Of a stretch of 33,945 bases of DNA, positions 962-24,126 are shown one piece after another. Within the stretch, counting starts at the first letter, position 1. Every line of letters begins with the position of its first letter. The notes beneath the pieces are model-generated. The model was given only the letters and a program-made list of their open reading frames with translations, had not been told where the DNA came from and did not search any database. A program made the position numbers and the translations under genes. The stretch is taken from positions 1-33,945 of the IMG/VR virus record IMGVR_UViG_3300020045_002420. One strand, given 5' to 3'. The stretch comes from a virus (lineage: Duplodnaviria > Caudoviricetes).

Positions 962-1495
962 ATGATAGAAGAATGGAAAGATATAACCAATTGTGAAGGA
1001 AGATACCAAATATCATCTTTTGGGAAAGTGAAGTCATTGTCAAGAACTAGAAAATACAGAGATGGTAGATATGGAATTAGTAAAGAATTTATCTTAAAAA
1101 CAGATATTAGCGGCAGGTATGCTAGAATTACAATAGCAGATAATAACGGTAAAATGTTGCATCCTAGTGTACATAGACTAGTTGCCGAAGCGTTTATCCC
1201 TAATCCAGAAAATAAAGCTACCGTTAATCACAAAGACGGTAATAAACTTAATAACTGCGTTTCAAATTTAGAATGGATGACTTTTGAGGAAAATAATAAT
1301 CATGCACTTGAAACTGGATTAAATAAAATAACAGGCAGTAAAAATTATAATTCTAAAATAGTATTAGACACGCAAACGGGTATTTTTTATGAATGCGCAA
1401 ATGAAGCTGCTATTGCAAAAGGAATAAAAATTAACTGCTTACATTCATCTTTAAACGGTCGTAGACCAAATAAAACTTCATTAGTTTATGCGTAA
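962..1495 (+). CDS. NUMOD4-HNH homing endonuclease (free-standing)
   Basis: [18 protein letters not shown] (NUMOD4); [36 protein letters not shown] (HNH). Confidence 0.92.
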
Positions 1496-7594: not shown

Positions 7595-7724
7595 AGACCA
7601 TATTGGATGGATCGTAGTATTAGCTATTTACCTATCTGGTATCGCATGGCTTACATACGCCTACCGCCAAGCACCAACAGAAGAACAAGACACCGATTAT
7701 CCACAAATAGATGATTTATACTAG
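7581..7724 (+). CDS. 47-aa single-TM peptide (not in ORF track)
   Basis: MNYIKDHIGWIVVLAIYLSGIAWLTYAYRQAPTEEQDTDYPQIDDLY; stop lies 1 nt before ATG 7726. Confidence 0.55.
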   Translation: MNYIKDHIGWIVVLAIYLSGIAWLTYAYRQAPTEEQDTDYPQIDDLY

Positions 7725-7725
7725 C

Positions 7726-8505
7726 ATGGAAAGATACATAAGTTTTTCTGGCGGTGTTGAAAGTACAACAATGTGTATTCTTTACGGTGCAGATGCTAAA
7801 GGTATTTGGGCAGATACGGGTAGCGAACATAAAAAAATGTATGAGCGCATTGAAACAGTAGAAAGGCAAATAAAGAAAATACATCCAGACTTTGAAATAA
7901 TCAAAGTAAAAGGTTCAGCCAAGCATAAGGGCGAATGGTACAATTCATTAGAAGATTTGGCAATAGCTTATAAGTTTATGCCATCAGGTCAAGCAAGATA
8001 CTGCACAAGGTACTTTAAGATTGAACCAATAGACAATTACCTAAAATCAAAAGGTAACTGTGAATCAATGATTGGATTGAATTACGATGAAGCGGCAAGT
8101 AGGGAAGGGAATTGGGGGCTTAATGAAAATGTAACCTATTTATACCCATTGGTTGATGATGGCTATACTAGGGCAGAATGCGAAGAAATACTCAATGAGC
8201 ATGGACTTCATCCTAATATGCCTGTTTATATGATGCGCGGGGGGTGTCGGATGTGTTTCTTTAAATCAGAAAAAGAGTATAGGGCAATGTACCACCTAGA
8301 CAAAGATGAGTTTTTTGAAGTCATGGCATTTGAAGAATCAATCCAAGACAAAAGACAAAAGTTTTACTCAATCATGGGCAACGGTAAAAGCATGAGGCAA
8401 TTAATGACCGAATGCCAAAGAGAAAAATTAATGTTCAACGAAATAGAAACCCTTTATAAATCACTTAAAAAAGAAACGTCTTGCGGGGCGTTTTGCCACA
8501 GATAA
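7726..8505 (+). CDS. PP-loop (PAPS reductase/DndC-like) protein, probable Fe-S
   Basis: ISFSGGVES, ADTGSEH, RYCTRYFKIEPI, IGLNYDEAASR, YPL, RGGCRMCFF, C-terminal CGAFCH. Confidence 0.85.
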   Translation: MERYISFSGGVESTTMCILYGADAKGIWADTGSEHKKMYERIETVERQIKKIHPDFEIIKVKGSAKHKGEWYNSLEDLAIAYKFMPSGQARYCTRYFKIEPIDNYLKSKGNCESMIGLNYDEAASREGNWGLNENVTYLYPLVDDGYTRAECEEILNEHGLHPNMPVYMMRGGCRMCFFKSEKEYRAMYHLDKDEFFEVMAFEESIQDKRQKFYSIMGNGKSMRQLMTECQREKLMFNEIETLYKSLKKETSCGAFCHR

Positions 8506-10937: not shown

Positions 10938-11041
10938 TAACTTAGCCTAAGCGTCTGGAAGCGCGATTATTAACTTATTTGGGCTATCACTTTATAAATG
11001 TCTTCCAGCATTTATCTTGTTTTAGCCCATTTTTTATTATG
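10938..11041 (+). ncRNA. Structured 5' leader with kissing-loop hairpins (copy A)
   Basis: TAACTTAG 10938-10945; CTGGAAG 10955-10961 is complementary to loop CTTCCAG 11002-11008 of hairpin 10980-11029; T-run then ATG 11039. Confidence 0.55.
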
Positions 11042-11521
11042 AAACCTGTTAATTATTTAGGCCGTTATCTAGTTTATCCAAATGGTAAAATTTACAGTAT
11101 TTGGTATAAAAGATTTTTAAAAGATTTGATTAATGATAAAGGTTATTGCAAAATTGATATTTGCATAAACAATAAAAAAACAACATCATTAGTGCATAGG
11201 ATTATAGCTGAATGCTGGATTGAAAATGTTGACAATAAATTAGAAGTTAATCATATTAACGGCGTTAAATCAGATAACAGGATTGAGAATTTAGAATGGT
11301 GTACAAGGACAGAAAATAATCGACACGCATGGAAAACAGGACTAAGCAAAAGTTCTGAAAAGCAGCGATTGTCTGCAAGTAAATTAGTATTGAATACTCA
11401 AACAGGAATATTTTATAATTCAGCCAAAGAAGCATCTAAAACTATTGGCATGAAATATTCTACCTTTAAAAATAAATTGAACAATTATCACCCTAACGAT
11501 ACAAACTTTATTTATGCCTAA
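11039..11521 (+). CDS. HNH homing endonuclease (free-standing)
   Basis: LVHRIIAECWIEN..VNHINGVKSDNRIENLEWCT..ENNRHA; C-terminal VLNTQTGIFYNSAKEA. Confidence 0.9.
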   Translation: MKPVNYLGRYLVYPNGKIYSIWYKRFLKDLINDKGYCKIDICINNKKTTSLVHRIIAECWIENVDNKLEVNHINGVKSDNRIENLEWCTRTENNRHAWKTGLSKSSEKQRLSASKLVLNTQTGIFYNSAKEASKTIGMKYSTFKNKLNNYHPNDTNFIYA

Positions 11522-12770: not shown

Positions 12771-12889
12771 CCTTACCACTCGATTGGTCAGACGAGCCTA
12801 ATATGAAGACCACAAGGGCCGGTACACTAACAATGTTCTAGGGTAAAGAATGACTAGCCGGCCCTTTAACTTTTAAAAACACAAACACT

Positions 12890-14185
12890 ATGAAGAAATA
12901 TACAGAAGTAAATGTTTATGATGCAGCCGTAAAACGGATTGACTTCATATTTAAAAACTTTGAGCGCATTTATTTGTCATTTTCAGGTGGTAAGGATAGC
13001 GGAGTTATGCTTAACCTTACACTTGAGTATATGAGAAAGCATGATATAAAAAACAAGATTGGAATAATGGTATTAGACAATGAAGCTAACTACGATTATT
13101 CTCTTGAATTTATGCACTCAATACTAGAAAAAAACCTTGATCTATTGGATGTGTATTGGTGTTCCCTTCCAATTACTTTGCCATGTACTGTGAGTGCATA
13201 CGCAACAGAATGGCAGTGCTGGGGTGTTAATGATGAAAAAAGATGGATAAGGCCAATGGGAAAACAACCGTATGTTGTGAATATGCAAAATTGCCCTTTT
13301 GACTTCTTTGAAGAAAATATGTCTTACGATGAATTTTGGGATAAGTTTGGGGATTGGTACGGTCAAGGGAAAAGAACGGCTTGTCTAATTGGAATTAGGG
13401 CCGATGAAAGCCTTAACCGATTTAGAGCCATCATGAATGACAGAAAGGAAACTTTACACGGTCAAATGTGGACTAAAAAGAACACTAAAATAGTTTACAA
13501 TTGCTACCCTATTTATGACTGGAAAACAGAAGATATTTGGGTTGCAAATGGCAAATTTGAATGGGAGTACAATGAATTGTATGATATTTTTTGGAAAGCT
13601 GGCTTATCTATACACCAAATGCGTGTTGCCTCACCATTTATGAGTGAATCAAAAAGCAGTCTTAATCTTTACCGCGTTATTGATCCTCACGTTTGGCAAA
13701 CATTATGCGCTAGGGTACAAGGTGCTAACTTTATTGCCACTTATGGCAAGCAGCTAACATATCATTCCTACAAACTACCTGAAGGTCATACCTGGAAGAG
13801 CTTTGTTAAGTTCCTTTTAGATACTCTCCCTAAAGAGGTTGCAGAAAATTTTAAGATGCGCTTTATCCAATCATTCAAATATTGGGGTAGGGTAGGGCGC
13901 GGATTAAGTGAAAAAACCATAAAAGAACTAAGAGAAAATGGCATCCATTTTTACGAAAATGGCAAAACCGTTCACGGCGGCAAAACAAAAACAAGGGTTG
14001 TGATAAAATCATATCCAGACCATTTGGATATGCTTTCTTGTGGCAACGGAGAGGTAGCTAGTTGGAAAAGGTTTGCAATAACTATCCTTAAAAATGACCA
14101 TACTTGTAAGTATATGGGATTGGCTCCAACTAAAGAGCAAGCCGTTAGGCAACGTCAAATAATGGAAAAGTATAAAGATTTATAA
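12890..14185 (+). CDS. ibrA: IbrA/YbdN-like PP-loop (PAPS reductase-like) protein with DUF3440 C-terminal domain
   Basis: YLSFSGGKDSGV, LDNEA, IGIRADESLNRF, YPIYDWKTEDIW, QMRVASPF, ARVQGANF, SWKRFAITILKND. Confidence 0.9.
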   Translation: MKKYTEVNVYDAAVKRIDFIFKNFERIYLSFSGGKDSGVMLNLTLEYMRKHDIKNKIGIMVLDNEANYDYSLEFMHSILEKNLDLLDVYWCSLPITLPCTVSAYATEWQCWGVNDEKRWIRPMGKQPYVVNMQNCPFDFFEENMSYDEFWDKFGDWYGQGKRTACLIGIRADESLNRFRAIMNDRKETLHGQMWTKKNTKIVYNCYPIYDWKTEDIWVANGKFEWEYNELYDIFWKAGLSIHQMRVASPFMSESKSSLNLYRVIDPHVWQTLCARVQGANFIATYGKQLTYHSYKLPEGHTWKSFVKFLLDTLPKEVAENFKMRFIQSFKYWGRVGRGLSEKTIKELRENGIHFYENGKTVHGGKTKTRVVIKSYPDHLDMLSCGNGEVASWKRFAITILKNDHTCKYMGLAPTKEQAVRQRQIMEKYKDL

Positions 14186-14191
14186 AATAAA

Positions 14192-14247
14192 TTTGTTCGG
14201 TAAAAAATTACCGCTTACATTTAATAAACAAAAAAACAAACACTATG
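14192..14247 (+). promoter_or_regulatory. Internal promoter for the ectC-like gene with perfect operator CGGTAA-AAAA-TTACCG
   Basis: TTTG 14192-14195, operator 14198-14213, TACATTTA 14216-14223, AAACACTATG 14238-14247. Confidence 0.75.
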
Positions 14248-14745
14248 AAAATTGTAAGAATTAACGAGTTAATCGACACAGAAAGGGAAGTAAAAGGTAT
14301 TGGCTTTACAAGCATTAGAGCCTTACTTAAAAAAGACAACATGGGTTTTTCAATGCACAAGACTATAATCCCTAAAGGTGGCCCTTATAATTGGCATTAC
14401 AAAAACCATCTTGAAGCATGCTATTGTATCAAAGGTTCAGGGATTGTTACGGAAGTTAGCACCGGAATTAGTACATTAATTACAACTGATGTAGTTTATG
14501 TATTGGATAACTACGATAACATGACTTTTGAGGCATTGGAAGATGTTGTTTTAATTTCCGTATTCAATCCGCCTGTTACTGGGATGGAAGTACATAAGGA
14601 AGATGGAAGTTATGATCTAGATATTTCAGATTTATTAGAATCAAACAAGACTATTGCGCATGATATTGTTAGGTTTGTAAATGAATCTAGTAATATTTAT
14701 GATGCAGTTGAATACGTAGAATCAATTTTAAACGCTAAAAAATAA
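14245..14745 (+). CDS. ectC: Solitary ectoine-synthase-like cupin with ~40-aa C-terminal extension
   Basis: IVR...TEREV..SIRALLKKDNMGFSMHKT..HYKNHLEACYCIKGSG..YVLD..VFNPPVTGMEVHKEDGSY matches the EctC signature. Confidence 0.88.
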   Translation: MKIVRINELIDTEREVKGIGFTSIRALLKKDNMGFSMHKTIIPKGGPYNWHYKNHLEACYCIKGSGIVTEVSTGISTLITTDVVYVLDNYDNMTFEALEDVVLISVFNPPVTGMEVHKEDGSYDLDISDLLESNKTIAHDIVRFVNESSNIYDAVEYVESILNAKK

Positions 14746-14749
14746 CACT

Positions 14750-15271
14750 ATGTCAGAATTTAAGTCACCAGTTTACAATGTTCTTTGCGTTCACATTGAT
14801 AAAATACAAGCAAATGACTATAACCCAAATAAAGTAGCTCCTCCTGAAATGGCATTGCTAGAAACTTCTATTTGGGAAGATGGATACACTCAGCCAGTAG
14901 TAACGTTTTATGACAAAGAAAACGACAAATATATTGTTGTAGATGGGTTCCACAGGTATTCAATTCTAAAAACTAGCAAACGAATTTTTGATCGTGAAAA
15001 TGGGATGCTTCCAGTAGTTGTTATTGACAAGGAGATTGGCGATAGGATGGCTTCTACCATTAGGCACAATAGGGCTAGAGGTTCGCACAATATTGAACTA
15101 ATGAGTACAATTGTTGCAGAACTTGTAGAAATGGGCAAAGGGGATGCTTGGATATGTAAACACATTGGTATGAGTGCTGATGAATTACTAAGGTTAAAGC
15201 AAATAACCGGATTAGCTTCTTTGTTTGCTAATAATGATTTTTCACAGAGCTGGGAGGCATCCAATGATTAG
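14750..15271 (+). CDS. ibrB: IbrB/YbdM-like ParB/Srx-domain protein
   Basis: ANDYNPNKVAPPEMALLETSIWEDGYTQPVV..VVDGFHRY..RMASTIRHNRARGSH..IGMSADELLRLKQITGL. Confidence 0.92.
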   Translation: MSEFKSPVYNVLCVHIDKIQANDYNPNKVAPPEMALLETSIWEDGYTQPVVTFYDKENDKYIVVDGFHRYSILKTSKRIFDRENGMLPVVVIDKEIGDRMASTIRHNRARGSHNIELMSTIVAELVEMGKGDAWICKHIGMSADELLRLKQITGLASLFANNDFSQSWEASND

Positions 15272-15677
15272 GCAATATGTCCCATATTGGTTATGGGAAG
15301 ACTATTTGAATGGTATGTGGAGTAAATTAGACAAAAACCTAGAAGATGAAATGCTGCAAAAAGCTATTAATTTTACAGGTGATTGGAAAAAATACGGTGA
15401 AGCTATGGGCCAGGTTATCATTGCTTGGCCCAATACCATGATAAATTCTTTAACAAACATTTCAATTAACAGGCGTGCATTTTTAGGACATTGCGCTTGC
15501 TCATATGCTTTTAATTGCCCTGAATATATTACTCGTCAAGCATGGCATTTACTTAGTTTGCAGCAACAAATAGATGCAGATAAAATTGCTCAAGCACATA
15601 TTAATAATTATGAGAAACAAGATAGAAAAATACATTCGAGATTGGGAAAGCAAATGCTATTCGAATGGGATACCTGA
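15264..15677 (+). CDS. Hypothetical protein coupled to ibrB (resembles a domain I recall in phage ParB-like proteins)
   Basis: 8-nt overlap with the ibrB stop; WEDY..WPNT...LTNISINRRAFLGHCAC..RQAWHLLS.QQQIDAD. Confidence 0.65.
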   Translation: MIRQYVPYWLWEDYLNGMWSKLDKNLEDEMLQKAINFTGDWKKYGEAMGQVIIAWPNTMINSLTNISINRRAFLGHCACSYAFNCPEYITRQAWHLLSLQQQIDADKIAQAHINNYEKQDRKIHSRLGKQMLFEWDT

Positions 15678-15870
15678 TGAAGTTCCAAATGAAATAGATC
15701 ATCTTGTCCCATCTTATAAAAGAATATGTTTTGCAATCTTAAAAAATGATTACCCATTAAAAACATTAGGGTTTTCAGAAACAAAATGTGAATCTTATAA
15801 TTTACTTAAAAGAATAGAAATAAGTGCTAGACCGACAACTAAAGCAATTCAGTTAAGATTATTTAGATGA
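15610..15870 (+). CDS. Stand-alone DUF3440-like domain protein
   Basis: RNKIEKYIRDW..GIPDEVP..PSYKRICFAILKNDYPLKTLGFS parallels the IbrA C-terminus ASWKRFAITILKNDHTCKYMGLA. Confidence 0.7.
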   Translation: MRNKIEKYIRDWESKCYSNGIPDEVPNEIDHLVPSYKRICFAILKNDYPLKTLGFSETKCESYNLLKRIEISARPTTKAIQLRLFR

Positions 15871-23521: not shown

Positions 23522-23590
23522 CTAACTTACAACACCCATCCCAACCAATAAAAAATATTTTTGCAACATTGTTGCAATTTCATAACTTTG
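23522..23590. promoter_or_regulatory. Divergent promoters sharing palindrome TGCAACATTGTTGCA
   Basis: Palindrome 23562-23576; minus-strand -7 TAAGTTAG (23529-23522) lies 32 nt away, as in the early promoters; plus-strand TAACTTTG 23583-23590 precedes ATG 23596. Confidence 0.65.
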
Positions 23591-23595
23591 GGAAC

Positions 23596-24126
23596 ATGAA
23601 CGGATGGAACGACATACCAGATTATGAAGGACTTTACCAAATTAGTATTTATGGTGAAGTTAGGTCTTTAGACAAAAAAGTCGAAGGCCGAAAAGGAATA
23701 ATCAAAGGTAAGTTAATGAAGCAAGGGGACAATGGGCGCGGGTATAAAAATATCATGTTAGTAAATGAACAAGGTAGAAAATTGCATTACGTTCATAGAT
23801 TAATGGCATTAACATTTTTGCAGCCGATTGATAACAAGGAATTTGTCAATCATATTGATGGCAATAAGTCAAACAATAATATTTCTAATCTAGAGTGGTG
23901 CGATAGAAGCGAAAACATGCTACACGCAAATAGTATCGGTCTTTGTCCACAATACGATAGAAGCGGTAATAAAAACCCCGCAACTAAAATAGTACTAGAT
24001 ATTGCTACGGGCGTTTATTATGATACTATGAAAGAAGCTGCTAATTTATACGGAATATCAGTAGGTTTTTTATCTGGTATGCTTAACAATAGGATTAAAA
24101 ACAAAACAAACCTAAGATATGTCTAA
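23596..24126 (+). CDS. NUMOD4-HNH homing endonuclease (free-standing)
   Basis: WNDIPDYEGLYQISIYGEVRSL; YVHRLMALTF..VNHIDGNKSNNNISNLEWC. Confidence 0.92.
   Translation: MNGWNDIPDYEGLYQISIYGEVRSLDKKVEGRKGIIKGKLMKQGDNGRGYKNIMLVNEQGRKLHYVHRLMALTFLQPIDNKEFVNHIDGNKSNNNISNLEWCDRSENMLHANSIGLCPQYDRSGNKNPATKIVLDIATGVYYDTMKEAANLYGISVGFLSGMLNNRIKNKTNLRYV

What the first reader, a model, noticed from the sequence alone, without database searches (positions are those of the whole stretch)
12890..15870. IbrA - EctC-like cupin - IbrB cassette: candidate novel phage DNA/nucleotide-modification system
Seen: five contiguous genes - a PP-loop/DUF3440 protein, an ectoine-synthase-like cupin, a ParB/Srx protein, a coupled unknown ORF and a stand-alone DUF3440-like domain. 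Known: ibrA/ibrB (ybdN/ybdM) are normally adjacent; PP-loop enzymes related to DndC/SspD/CysH activate substrates by adenylation; EctC is an Fe-cupin that cyclo-condenses N-acetyl-diaminobutyrate and normally works with EctA/EctB, neither of which is in this genome. Inference: the cupin wedged between ibrA and ibrB, co-transcribed with ibrB and upstream of the replication genes, is more plausibly part of one pathway than an osmoprotection gene. For example, the PP-loop enzyme could adenylate or ligate a group onto DNA or a nucleotide, the cupin cyclise or dehydrate it, and the ParB protein target DNA, giving anti-restriction or counter-defence.
Basis: partly seen in the sequence, partly recalled or inferred. 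Interest (0 to 1): 0.88.

Follow-up and report, generated by a model that had tools for sequence, protein, structure and literature searches.

The report
Phage IbrAB pathway with ectoine-type enzymes
This phage carries five packed genes that recur together in over a hundred other phage sequences, in some beside an ectoine-hydroxylase-like gene, and they likely form one unsolved ATP-driven pathway that would build an ectoine-like ring on nucleic acid, rather than likely being a salt-stress helper.

Summary
The five genes are real and travel as a unit. Of 112 distinct IbrA proteins in the window's clade, 109 have the EctC-like cupin; 0 of 108 more distant ones do. Gene order is shuffled. Fusions (cupin=IbrB, D=E, E=IbrA) and a predicted IbrA-IbrB complex (0.77, best control 0.02) link all five proteins. 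A variable slot beside ibrA holds an EctD-like hydroxylase in cupin cassettes (4 of 4 viral and 19 of 19 metagenome motif hits), or a CmoB-like methyltransferase or GNAT in cupin-less ones. No EctA or EctB was found in this complete genome, and no EctB in 302 loci. The cupins keep EctC's catalytic core but not Trp21. The window's copy also has Met for the iron ligand His93; independent contigs confirm this, and listed changes are mostly synonymous. Best reading (about 0.4): IbrAB activate and attach an amino-acid group to nucleic acid, and the cupin closes an ectoine-type ring. The acceptor is unproven, and strong palindrome avoidance argues against blanket anti-restriction. The scan reported this cassette on other DNA before; a word search found no earlier report of the EctD link.

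The parts
12890..14185 (+). A / IbrA, 431 aa. N-terminal PP-loop domain (SGGKDS, GIRxDES, YPIYDW) with the fold of FAD synthase / CysD / CysH, plus a basic C-terminal DUF3440 region (pI 9.8).
   Evidence: pLDDT 91.6; Z 15.9, rmsd 2.4, 165 aligned to human FAD synthase 8rom; Z 15.1 to CysD 1zun
14245..14745 (+). C, EctC-like cupin, 166 aa (domain 1-125 plus a 40-aa tail). Keeps S23, R25, T40, Y52, H55, E57, Y85, F107, E115, H117. Has W21F, the clade-specific W50, C59 and F95, and H93M in this lineage only.
14521..14523 (+). ATG (Met) codon at the His93 iron-ligand position of the cupin
   Evidence: sequence. Contigs of runs X1, X5 and X7 cover it with no difference listed. 119 of 120 homologues have His; the one Met is the window's own cluster.
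14750..15271 (+). B / IbrB, 173 aa. ParB/Srx-type domain (YNPN, DGFHR, RHNRAR), an HTH-like segment (inferred from sequence), and a conserved C-terminal tail (154-173) predicted to dock on IbrA.
15264..15677 (+). D, 137 aa all-alpha protein of no known family, invariant W11, E12, N69, G75. Directly upstream of E wherever both were found; fused to E in L087 and L347.
   Evidence: (pLDDT 91.7)
15610..15870 (+). E, 86 aa stand-alone paralogue of the IbrA C-terminal subdomain (GIPDE..PSYKRI..AILKND). Overlaps the end of D by 68 nt; fused to the N-terminus of an IbrA in L107.
12883..12892 (+). AAACACTATG translation-start context, also at 14238 (cupin) and, with one mismatch, at 14743 (ibrB)
   Evidence: 14 matches with up to 1 mismatch against 3.6 expected; 0 of 100 shuffles reach 14

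Best explanation
The five genes recur together and likely encode one enzyme machine, in which IbrB is predicted to dock on IbrA, IbrA would use ATP to activate an acceptor on nucleic acid so that an amino-acid-type amine would be attached, and the cupin would close that group into an ectoine-type ring. In some relatives an EctD-like enzyme would then hydroxylate the ring and a methyltransferase would cap it. In cupin-less IbrA lineages the same slot holds a GNAT acetyltransferase or a CmoB-like SAM enzyme, which would tailor the same kind of amine differently. D and E would be scaffold or substrate-binding subunits. Shown: linkage, fusions, residue patterns, accessory swapping. Predicted: folds and the IbrA-IbrB interface. 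Inferred: the activity of every enzyme, the amine, the acceptor (phage DNA or a nucleotide during replication) and the benefit (counter-defence or control of gene expression).
For: (1) Linkage. The cupin accompanies 109 of 112 distinct IbrA proteins scoring 512 bits or more, and 0 of 108 scoring 339 or less. At least six gene orders occur.
(2) Physical links. 18 of 106 distinct cupins are fused to IbrB, including Gaia gp104. L225 encodes cupin=methyltransferase=IbrB. E is fused to IbrA in L107, and D to E in L087 and L347. IbrA+IbrB scored 0.77 against a best control of 0.02; the mark was reached by 116 of 157 solved and 2 of 215 mismatched pairs; runs agree in at least 77% of contacts, partner pLDDT at least 66. 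The interface uses conserved residues.
(3) IbrA fold. It is closest to adenylyl-transferring or adenylate-binding PP-loop enzymes. Its weak PADLOC hit is DndC, a DNA-modifying relative (E 1.4e-6).
(4) Ectoine-type ring. The EctD-like gene lies in the cassette in 4 of 4 viral loci, directly after ibrA, and beside cassette genes in 19 of 19 metagenome motif hits (some repeat the viral loci).
(5) Other tailoring enzymes. A CmoB-like methyltransferase sits between ibrA and ibrB in 8 of 8 viral loci. A GNAT cluster occurs in 14 of 80 cupin-less loci.
(6) Changed substrate pocket. W21 occurs in 0 of 106 cassette cupins against 28 of 29 bacterial EctC; C59 and F95 are in 106 of 106. The cassette cupins form one side of a branch (SH-aLRT 99, quick tree). 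All four aligned viral EctD-like proteins have G-W where bacterial EctD has E-F.
(7) Low flux seems tolerated. H93M persists, with 15 of 16 listed differences synonymous, while H93A and H93N leave 8% and 23% activity in EctC (PMC4795551 Table 1).
(8) Nucleic-acid context. IbrB matches ParB and Noc and a DNA-methyltransferase PHROG over its ParB-like part (E 2.3e-10). Recurrent neighbours look like replication and recombination genes, named by my reading of the sequences.
Against: No call shows the acceptor.

The window avoids palindromes strongly: 4-mer observed/expected 0.80, 6-mer 0.62, AAGCTT 0 against 25 expected counting both strands. Cassette loci do not differ from comparison loci: medians 0.856 (n=43), 0.891 (n=14), 0.867 (n=12). 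A genome-wide shield against restriction is therefore not supported.

EctC and EctD are small-molecule enzymes, and their conserved cores, including R25, fit a free amino-acid substrate at least as well. The closest IbrA folds act on small molecules (FMN, sulfate, APS). No base-making enzyme recurs among the clustered neighbours. The window's own cupin lacks an iron ligand and may be weak or inactive. In L041 a peroxiredoxin replaces the cupin, which this model does not explain. In E. coli, IbrAB is reported as an activator of prophage genes (Sandt 2002; title seen only).
Confidence: 0.4

Rival explanations
1. The machine makes a diffusible small molecule. IbrB would act as a SerK/SbnI-like kinase and IbrA as an FAD-synthase-like adenylyltransferase or ligase, together replacing EctAB. 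The cupin and EctD-like enzymes would finish an ectoine analogue or ectoine-nucleotide conjugate that serves as a signal, defence inhibitor or protectant.
For: EctC and EctD catalytic cores are conserved. IbrB has weak hits to SerK and SbnI (E 0.018 and 0.029; E 0.044). The top IbrA folds are small-molecule enzymes. A diffusible product would fit action in trans and the retained palindrome avoidance.
Against: IbrB has an HTH-like segment and is closer to ParB/Noc than to SbnI. IbrA carries a large basic C-terminal region absent from the matched folds. The cassette sits among replication-type genes. No transporter or precursor enzyme recurs among the clustered neighbours.
Confidence: 0.28
2. 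The acceptor is a protein. IbrAB would attach a nucleotide or amino-acid group to D, E or a host protein such as a nucleoid silencer or defence enzyme, and the accessory enzymes would tailor it, changing gene expression or disarming defence.
For: IbrAB is annotated as a co-activator of prophage gene expression. A PP-loop enzyme in complex with a modified protein is among the fold matches (Cap9-CdnD, 9nto, Z 8.1). D and E have no recognised catalytic motif.
Against: That match is far below the FAD synthase / CysD group (Z 13.6-15.9). EctC needs a free alpha-amino acid moiety, which a protein-bound group would rarely present. No target gene recurs.
Confidence: 0.14
3. The cupin is an ordinary ectoine synthase used for osmoprotection with host-made N-acetyl-diaminobutyrate, and merely rides with ibrAB.
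For: It passes the NCBIfam ectoine synthase cut-off. EctD-like genes join it in some cassettes. A solitary EctC of P. syringae was reported to make ectoine in an ectC mutant host (PMC5924519).
Against: No EctB in 302 loci plus the genome, against 25 of 30 bacterial ectC loci, and no EctA in the genome. The cupin is confined to one IbrA clade, fused to IbrB, has lost W21, and here has H93M. A host that makes the substrate would normally have its own EctC (inference).
Confidence: 0.08
4. The cassette is a phage phosphorothioation system of the Dnd/Ssp/Tdp kind.
For: IbrA has weak DndC hits. All four known PT systems contain a PAPS-reductase-domain protein (PMC12914056).
Against: No cysteine is among the invariant or near-invariant columns of 106 IbrA sequences. 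No desulfurase or DndD/SspC-type ATPase appears among the recurrent neighbour clusters. EctC, EctD, GNAT and methyltransferase partners have no role in PT chemistry.
Confidence: 0.05

Closest known systems
IbrA/IbrB (E. coli ECOR-9 island; K-12 YbdN/YbdM; PHROG 2302 + 2159)
   Same: PAPS_reduct + DUF3440 protein beside a ParB-like protein. IbrA relatives occur in 224 phage records.
   Different: A distinct IbrA clade (mostly 65-80% identical within, up to about 46% to other full-length relatives) carrying the cupin, D and E. No biochemistry of any IbrAB was found in the papers searched.
Mycobacterium phage Gaia gp103/104/106/107 (also Nebkiss) and Pseudoalteromonas phage XCL1123 QGJ84328-84331
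   Same: The same five parts in Gaia and XCL1123. Annotated as 'PAPS reductase' and 'ectoine synthase/ParB multidomain protein'.
   Different: Annotation only; no function found in print. Gaia fuses cupin and IbrB and has an extra gene in the cassette. The window's cupin has H93M.
Ectoine synthase EctC and hydroxylase EctD (ectABCD)
   Same: Cupin with 12 of the 13 strictly conserved EctC residues in the window copy (H93 missing; present in the other cassette cupins). EctD-like partners are 173-189 bits to TIGR02408.
   Different: No ectAB. W21 is lost; W50, C59 and F95 are gained. The EctD signature is altered (F to W in all, E often to K or Q) and the two tested score under the 336.5 cut-off. 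The cupin is fused to a ParB-type protein in some loci.
DndC / SspD / BrxP / TdpC phosphorothioation enzymes
   Same: PAPS-reductase-type PP-loop domain. TdpC works via an adenylated intermediate (title of An 2025, seen in a reference list).
   Different: Hits are weak (E 1e-6). No conserved cysteines and none of the partner genes.
FAD synthase / CysD / CysH PP-loop subfamily
   Same: Fold of IbrA residues about 4-260 (Z 13.6-15.9).
   Different: IbrA lacks the CysH iron-sulfur motif and adds about 190 residues that the fold search barely tested.

Membership tests
IbrA/IbrB pair | PAPS_reduct + DUF3440 protein | tested here: met
   phrog_2302 E 9.7e-108
IbrA/IbrB pair | linked ParB-like IbrB | tested here: met
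   phrog_2159 E 5.5e-81; one gene apart; predicted complex
IbrA/IbrB pair | activates prophage eib expression | not testable with these tools
   known here only from a paper title and annotations
Ectoine synthase EctC | profile score above curated cut-off | tested here: met
   139.7 against 128; 142.8 against 27
Ectoine synthase EctC | iron triad Glu57, Tyr85, His93 | tested here: not met
   Window has E57 and Y85 but M93. The other 106 cassette cupins have all three.
Ectoine synthase EctC | substrate-pocket Trp21 | tested here: not met
   F21 here; W in 0 of 106 cassette cupins and 28 of 29 bacterial EctC. W21A leaves 26% activity.
Ectoine synthase EctC | ectA and ectB in the genome or neighbourhood | tested here: not met
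   genome complete. EctA was searched only in the window's genome.
Ectoine synthase EctC | cyclises N-gamma-acetyl-diaminobutyrate | not testable with these tools
   needs an enzyme assay
Ectoine hydroxylase EctD (relatives only; not in this window) | 17-residue signature F-x-W-H-S-D-F-E-T-W-H-x-E-D-G-M/L-P and equivalog cut-off | tested here: not met
   Core WHSDFETWH kept; F replaced by W; E often K or Q; 188.6 and 173.2 bits against 336.5
CysH PAPS/APS reductase | conserved cysteine motifs (CC...CxxC; C-terminal catalytic ECG motif, recalled) | tested here: not met
   absent from the sequence and from the 106-sequence consensus; TIGR00434 12.6 bits against 165
Dnd/Ssp/BREX-4 phosphorothioation | DndC/SspD-level profile score | tested here: not met
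   TIGR03183 17.2 against 290.4; PADLOC DndC 25.5 bits
Dnd/Ssp/BREX-4 phosphorothioation | linked P-loop ATPase and cysteine desulfurase | tested here: inconclusive
   none among the top neighbour clusters, judged by reading sequences; a host desulfurase could serve
ParB/Srx superfamily | ParB N-terminal domain with GxxR motif | tested here: met
   D65, G66, H68 and R69 invariant in 87 sequences; ParB_N E 1.4e-4, under the gathering score; ParB and Noc hits
ParB/Srx superfamily | kinase activity of SerK/SbnI type | tested here: inconclusive
   only weak hits, E 0.018-0.044

The most novel reading that the evidence does not exclude
IbrA/IbrB/D/E is a widespread, undescribed nucleic-acid modification machine with swappable tailoring enzymes. 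In this clade it hangs an ectoine-type cyclic amidine, optionally hydroxylated and methylated, on phage DNA or a nucleotide, so that osmolyte enzymes have been repurposed for epigenetic chemistry. Solving it would also explain E. coli YbdN/YbdM and a share of the phage 'cysH' and 'ectC' auxiliary metabolic genes.
Probability: 0.3. Interest if true: 0.93.

Novelty: new variant of a known kind. Interest (0 to 1): 0.74.

Why it matters
IbrA/IbrB and E. coli ybdN/ybdM were named about twenty years ago, and no mechanism turned up in the papers searched. Phage PAPS-reductase-like genes are widely read as sulfur-metabolism auxiliary genes (passages).

This cassette supplies the first chemical handles. 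The accessory slot is filled by enzymes that act on amines or on their ring products (EctC-like, EctD-like, GNAT, SAM-dependent), IbrB is predicted to dock on IbrA by a short tail, and cultured phages on laboratory hosts (Gaia and Nebkiss on M. smegmatis; XCL1123) carry the cassette. The question can therefore be tested directly. Whether the product is a new nucleic-acid mark or a new phage-made small molecule, it would be new chemistry, and it would correct the labels 'ectoine synthase' and 'PAPS reductase' for this group of viral genes.

Tried and rejected
Fold of D. There was no Foldseek match in PDB at E up to 0.001. The best VIA Z was 4.6 among 48,161 chains. BFVD gave one strong match, an unnamed 42%-identical protein. 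ESM Atlas hits were at most 0.85, and no Pfam family matched convincingly in 62 members. This shows neither a new fold nor a function.

IbrA C-terminal region. The Atlas search gave only leads at 0.85. A PDB sequence search with IbrA found nothing.

Sequencing error for H93M: rejected.

Cupin tail as a relic of the IbrB N-terminal extension: rejected; it scored 2.0 bits against shuffles up to 7.8.

Promoter and terminator scan: at chance level, 18 against 14.7 and 3 against 3.0.

Expression: no RNA holder listed.

Relatives by terminase: 0 of 20 loci show cassette genes, but most do not reach the equivalent position. L236 has a 99% identical terminase and a different upstream region.

Palindrome comparison between groups: no difference; the controls are not matched.

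Literature. Searches were made; none listed a paper that describes the cassette. The CRISPRi preprint's passages on Nebkiss name only envelope genes. PMC4241021 is not held. No supplements were opened, and the CRISPRi supplementary tables could bear on host dependence. Subscription papers are not searchable.

The careful cupin tree did not finish; the quick tree was used.
Full report
Observation. The window is a complete 33.9 kb tailed-phage genome with direct terminal repeats (structural genes). A (12890-14185) has PAPS_reduct and DUF3440. C (14245-14745) passes the ectoine synthase cut-offs. B (14750-15271) is phrog_2159, ParB-like. D has no family. E matches the last third of DUF3440. Homologue alignments favour starts at 15264 for D and 15610 for E. 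The cassette lies between an Erf-like gene (10377) plus a probable SSB (12471; inferred from its acidic DLPF end, no family hit) and a nuclease plus primase/helicase (16036, 16560). EctA and EctB are absent.

Conservation. All 27 viral contigs found with the cupin carry B, D and E, and 26 carry A. Among 50,697 phage records, 5 have the cupin (Gaia twice, Nebkiss, XCL1123, one unannotated) and 224 have an IbrA relative. Gaia and XCL1123 have all five parts. Pooling all loci and collapsing identical IbrA proteins gave 220 sequences with a clean score gap: 112 at 512 bits or more and 108 at 339 or less. The cupin accompanies 109 of the 112 and 0 of the 108. Of the three exceptions, two are contig ends and one (L041) has a peroxiredoxin in the slot. 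An IbrA tree needs two changes of the cupin label against about 23 for shuffles. The distant group was reached largely through D-anchored and L209-anchored scans, so its D frequency (102 of 108) is inflated. It does show that A, B and D form a wider core without the cupin. A D relative was found on 404 viral stretches but in only 13 loci among 185,579 species genomes, all metagenome-assembled contigs. The module is therefore essentially viral, within the sensitivity of pattern scans. Orders seen include ACBDE, DEACB, ACDEB, BDEAC, CBDEA and ADECB.

One machine. 18 of 106 distinct cupins are fused to IbrB. L225 encodes cupin=methyltransferase=IbrB. E is fused to the front of IbrA in L107, and D to E in L347 and L087 (the start of D looks frameshifted in L087). 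The missing A-B link was tested by complex prediction with my own 87-row alignments. It scored 0.77 against a best control of 0.02; the mark was reached by 116 of 157 solved and 2 of 215 mismatched pairs; runs agree in at least 77% of contacts, partner pLDDT at least 66. IbrB residues 154-173 (invariant G154, F159, F164) lie on IbrA residues 1-12 and 210-241. This supports binding; it does not show it.

IbrA and IbrB. The IbrA model (pLDDT 91.6) matches FAD synthase (Z 15.9), CysD (15.1) and APS/PAPS reductases (13.7-14.9) ahead of TilS, GMP and NAD synthetases (10-12) over residues about 4-260. The PP-loop and GxRxxES motifs are near-invariant, but no cysteine is, so PAPS reduction and DndC-type iron-sulfur chemistry are unlikely. 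The C-terminal 196 residues are basic (pI 9.8) and were barely tested by the fold search. IbrB is closest to ParB and Noc, with weak SbnI and SerK hits.

The cupin. The cassette cupins fall on one side of a branch against 28 bacterial EctC from one sampled class (SH-aLRT 99, quick tree of 126 columns); rooting and origin were not tested. They keep the catalytic core but differ at W21 (0 of 106 against 28 of 29), W50 (96 of 106), C59 and F95 (106 of 106). The window's copy has Met at His93. Three independent runs cover the codon without a listed difference, and 119 of 120 homologues have His. Of the 16 differences of run X1 listed within the ORF (a truncated list), 15 are synonymous. In S. alaskensis EctC, H93A and H93N keep 8% and 23% of activity and W21A 26% (PMC4795551, passages and Table 1). 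The gene therefore appears to be kept under selection while probably slow, which suits low-flux chemistry better than bulk osmolyte synthesis (inference).

The accessory slot, the main new result. Listing genes inside cassettes revealed EctD-like dioxygenases (TIGR02408 189 and 173 bits, under cut-off; nearest solved relative EctD, E 4e-60). All 4 viral loci found with this gene have it directly after ibrA. A metagenome scan with the clade's own GW-x-WHSDFETWH motif gave 19 loci, all with cassette genes alongside. The pattern selected the clade, not the neighbourhood; some hits repeat the viral loci, and 19 distinct motif variants occur in the 23 loci. A second methyltransferase accompanies EctD in L225, L226 and L344. 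In cupin-less cassettes the slot holds a CmoB-like SAM enzyme (8 of 8 viral loci) or a GNAT (one cluster in 14 of 80 loci; 6 of 7 tested hit GNAT profiles). Acetylation, methylation, ring closure and ring hydroxylation are all ways to tailor an amine or its product. I infer that the IbrAB core yields an amine-bearing, amino-acid-like group and that this clade converts it to an ectoine-type ring. EctC is known to accept other acyl-amino acids, such as glutamine (PMC5924519, passages and section 18).

What argues against the DNA reading. The genome avoids palindromes (6-mer 0.62; CCGG 0.39, GATC 0.44), and cassette loci do not differ from unmatched comparison loci. EctC and EctD enclose small substrates, the closest IbrA folds act on small molecules, and no base-making enzyme recurs nearby. 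I therefore give the nucleic-acid acceptor 0.40, a diffusible ectoine-like product 0.28, a protein acceptor 0.14, plain osmoprotection 0.08 and phosphorothioation 0.05.

Literature. Ten searches listed no description of the cassette. I read passages only of PMC4541368, PMC12839542, PMC4795551, PMC9068703, PMC12914056, PMC5924519 (plus section 18), PMC13369170, PMC12707154, PMC8065619, and bioRxiv 10.1101/2021.01.05.425418, 10.1101/2024.08.14.607894 and 10.64898/2026.10.09.757826. Sandt 2002 and An 2025 were seen as titles in reference lists. No supplements were read. The names IbrA and IbrB come from record annotations.

Earlier scan notes. Four reports describe the same cassette on other genomes and agree with my prior reading; they are not independent evidence. 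A word search for the EctD link returned none, and there were no notes on this genome.

Verdict. The cassette is real, conserved and biochemically unsolved. It is a new variant of the IbrAB kind, with a credible route to categorically new chemistry. Interest 0.74.

Noticed in passing
window 7711-8505 (+): A second, unrelated PP-loop gene (phrog_424; PADLOC SspD E 2.2e-27). A weak relative also lies upstream of the cassette in L002.
   Followed up: no
window, 14 sites including 4211, 5588, 8746, 10370, 28140 (+) and 5457, 23207, 23499, 26027 (-): The AAACACTATG start motif is enriched (14 against 3.6). The A-rich start context suggests a Bacteroidota host (recalled, not tested). The minus-strand copies may mark small antisense ORFs.
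   Followed up: partly
L041:3868-4617: A 1-Cys peroxiredoxin replaces the cupin between ibrA and ibrB, the only clear cupin loss in the clade; unexplained.
   Followed up: partly
L225:5352-6851: A 499-aa triple fusion of cupin, SAM methyltransferase and IbrB, directly after an EctD-like gene.
   Followed up: partly
L032:1391-1666, L081:7316-7651, L095:7272-7589, L048:4510-5262, L029:6947-7264: Small GIY-YIG-like genes (my reading of the motif) are repeatedly inserted inside the cassette, which may make it a homing target.
   Followed up: no
L150:1525-1839 (G174): A bacterial solitary EctC-like gene with G21 and C59, as in many cassette cupins, lies next to an adenylation-domain gene. It is on a long branch and did not group with the cassette cupins.
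   Followed up: partly
window 962-1495, 10979-11521, 23569-24126: Three related HNH endonuclease genes (phrog_59) in a 34 kb genome.
   Followed up: no
window 14198-14213: A short hairpin in the 59-nt gap between ibrA and the cupin; terminator-like sites in the region are at chance level.
   Followed up: no
window 15574-15677: D and E overlap in different frames, with longer overlaps in several relatives. With the D=E fusions in L087 and L347, a frameshift-made fusion is possible but untested.
   Followed up: no
L339:4108-4959: The EctD-like gene is in two pieces in this contig.
   Followed up: no
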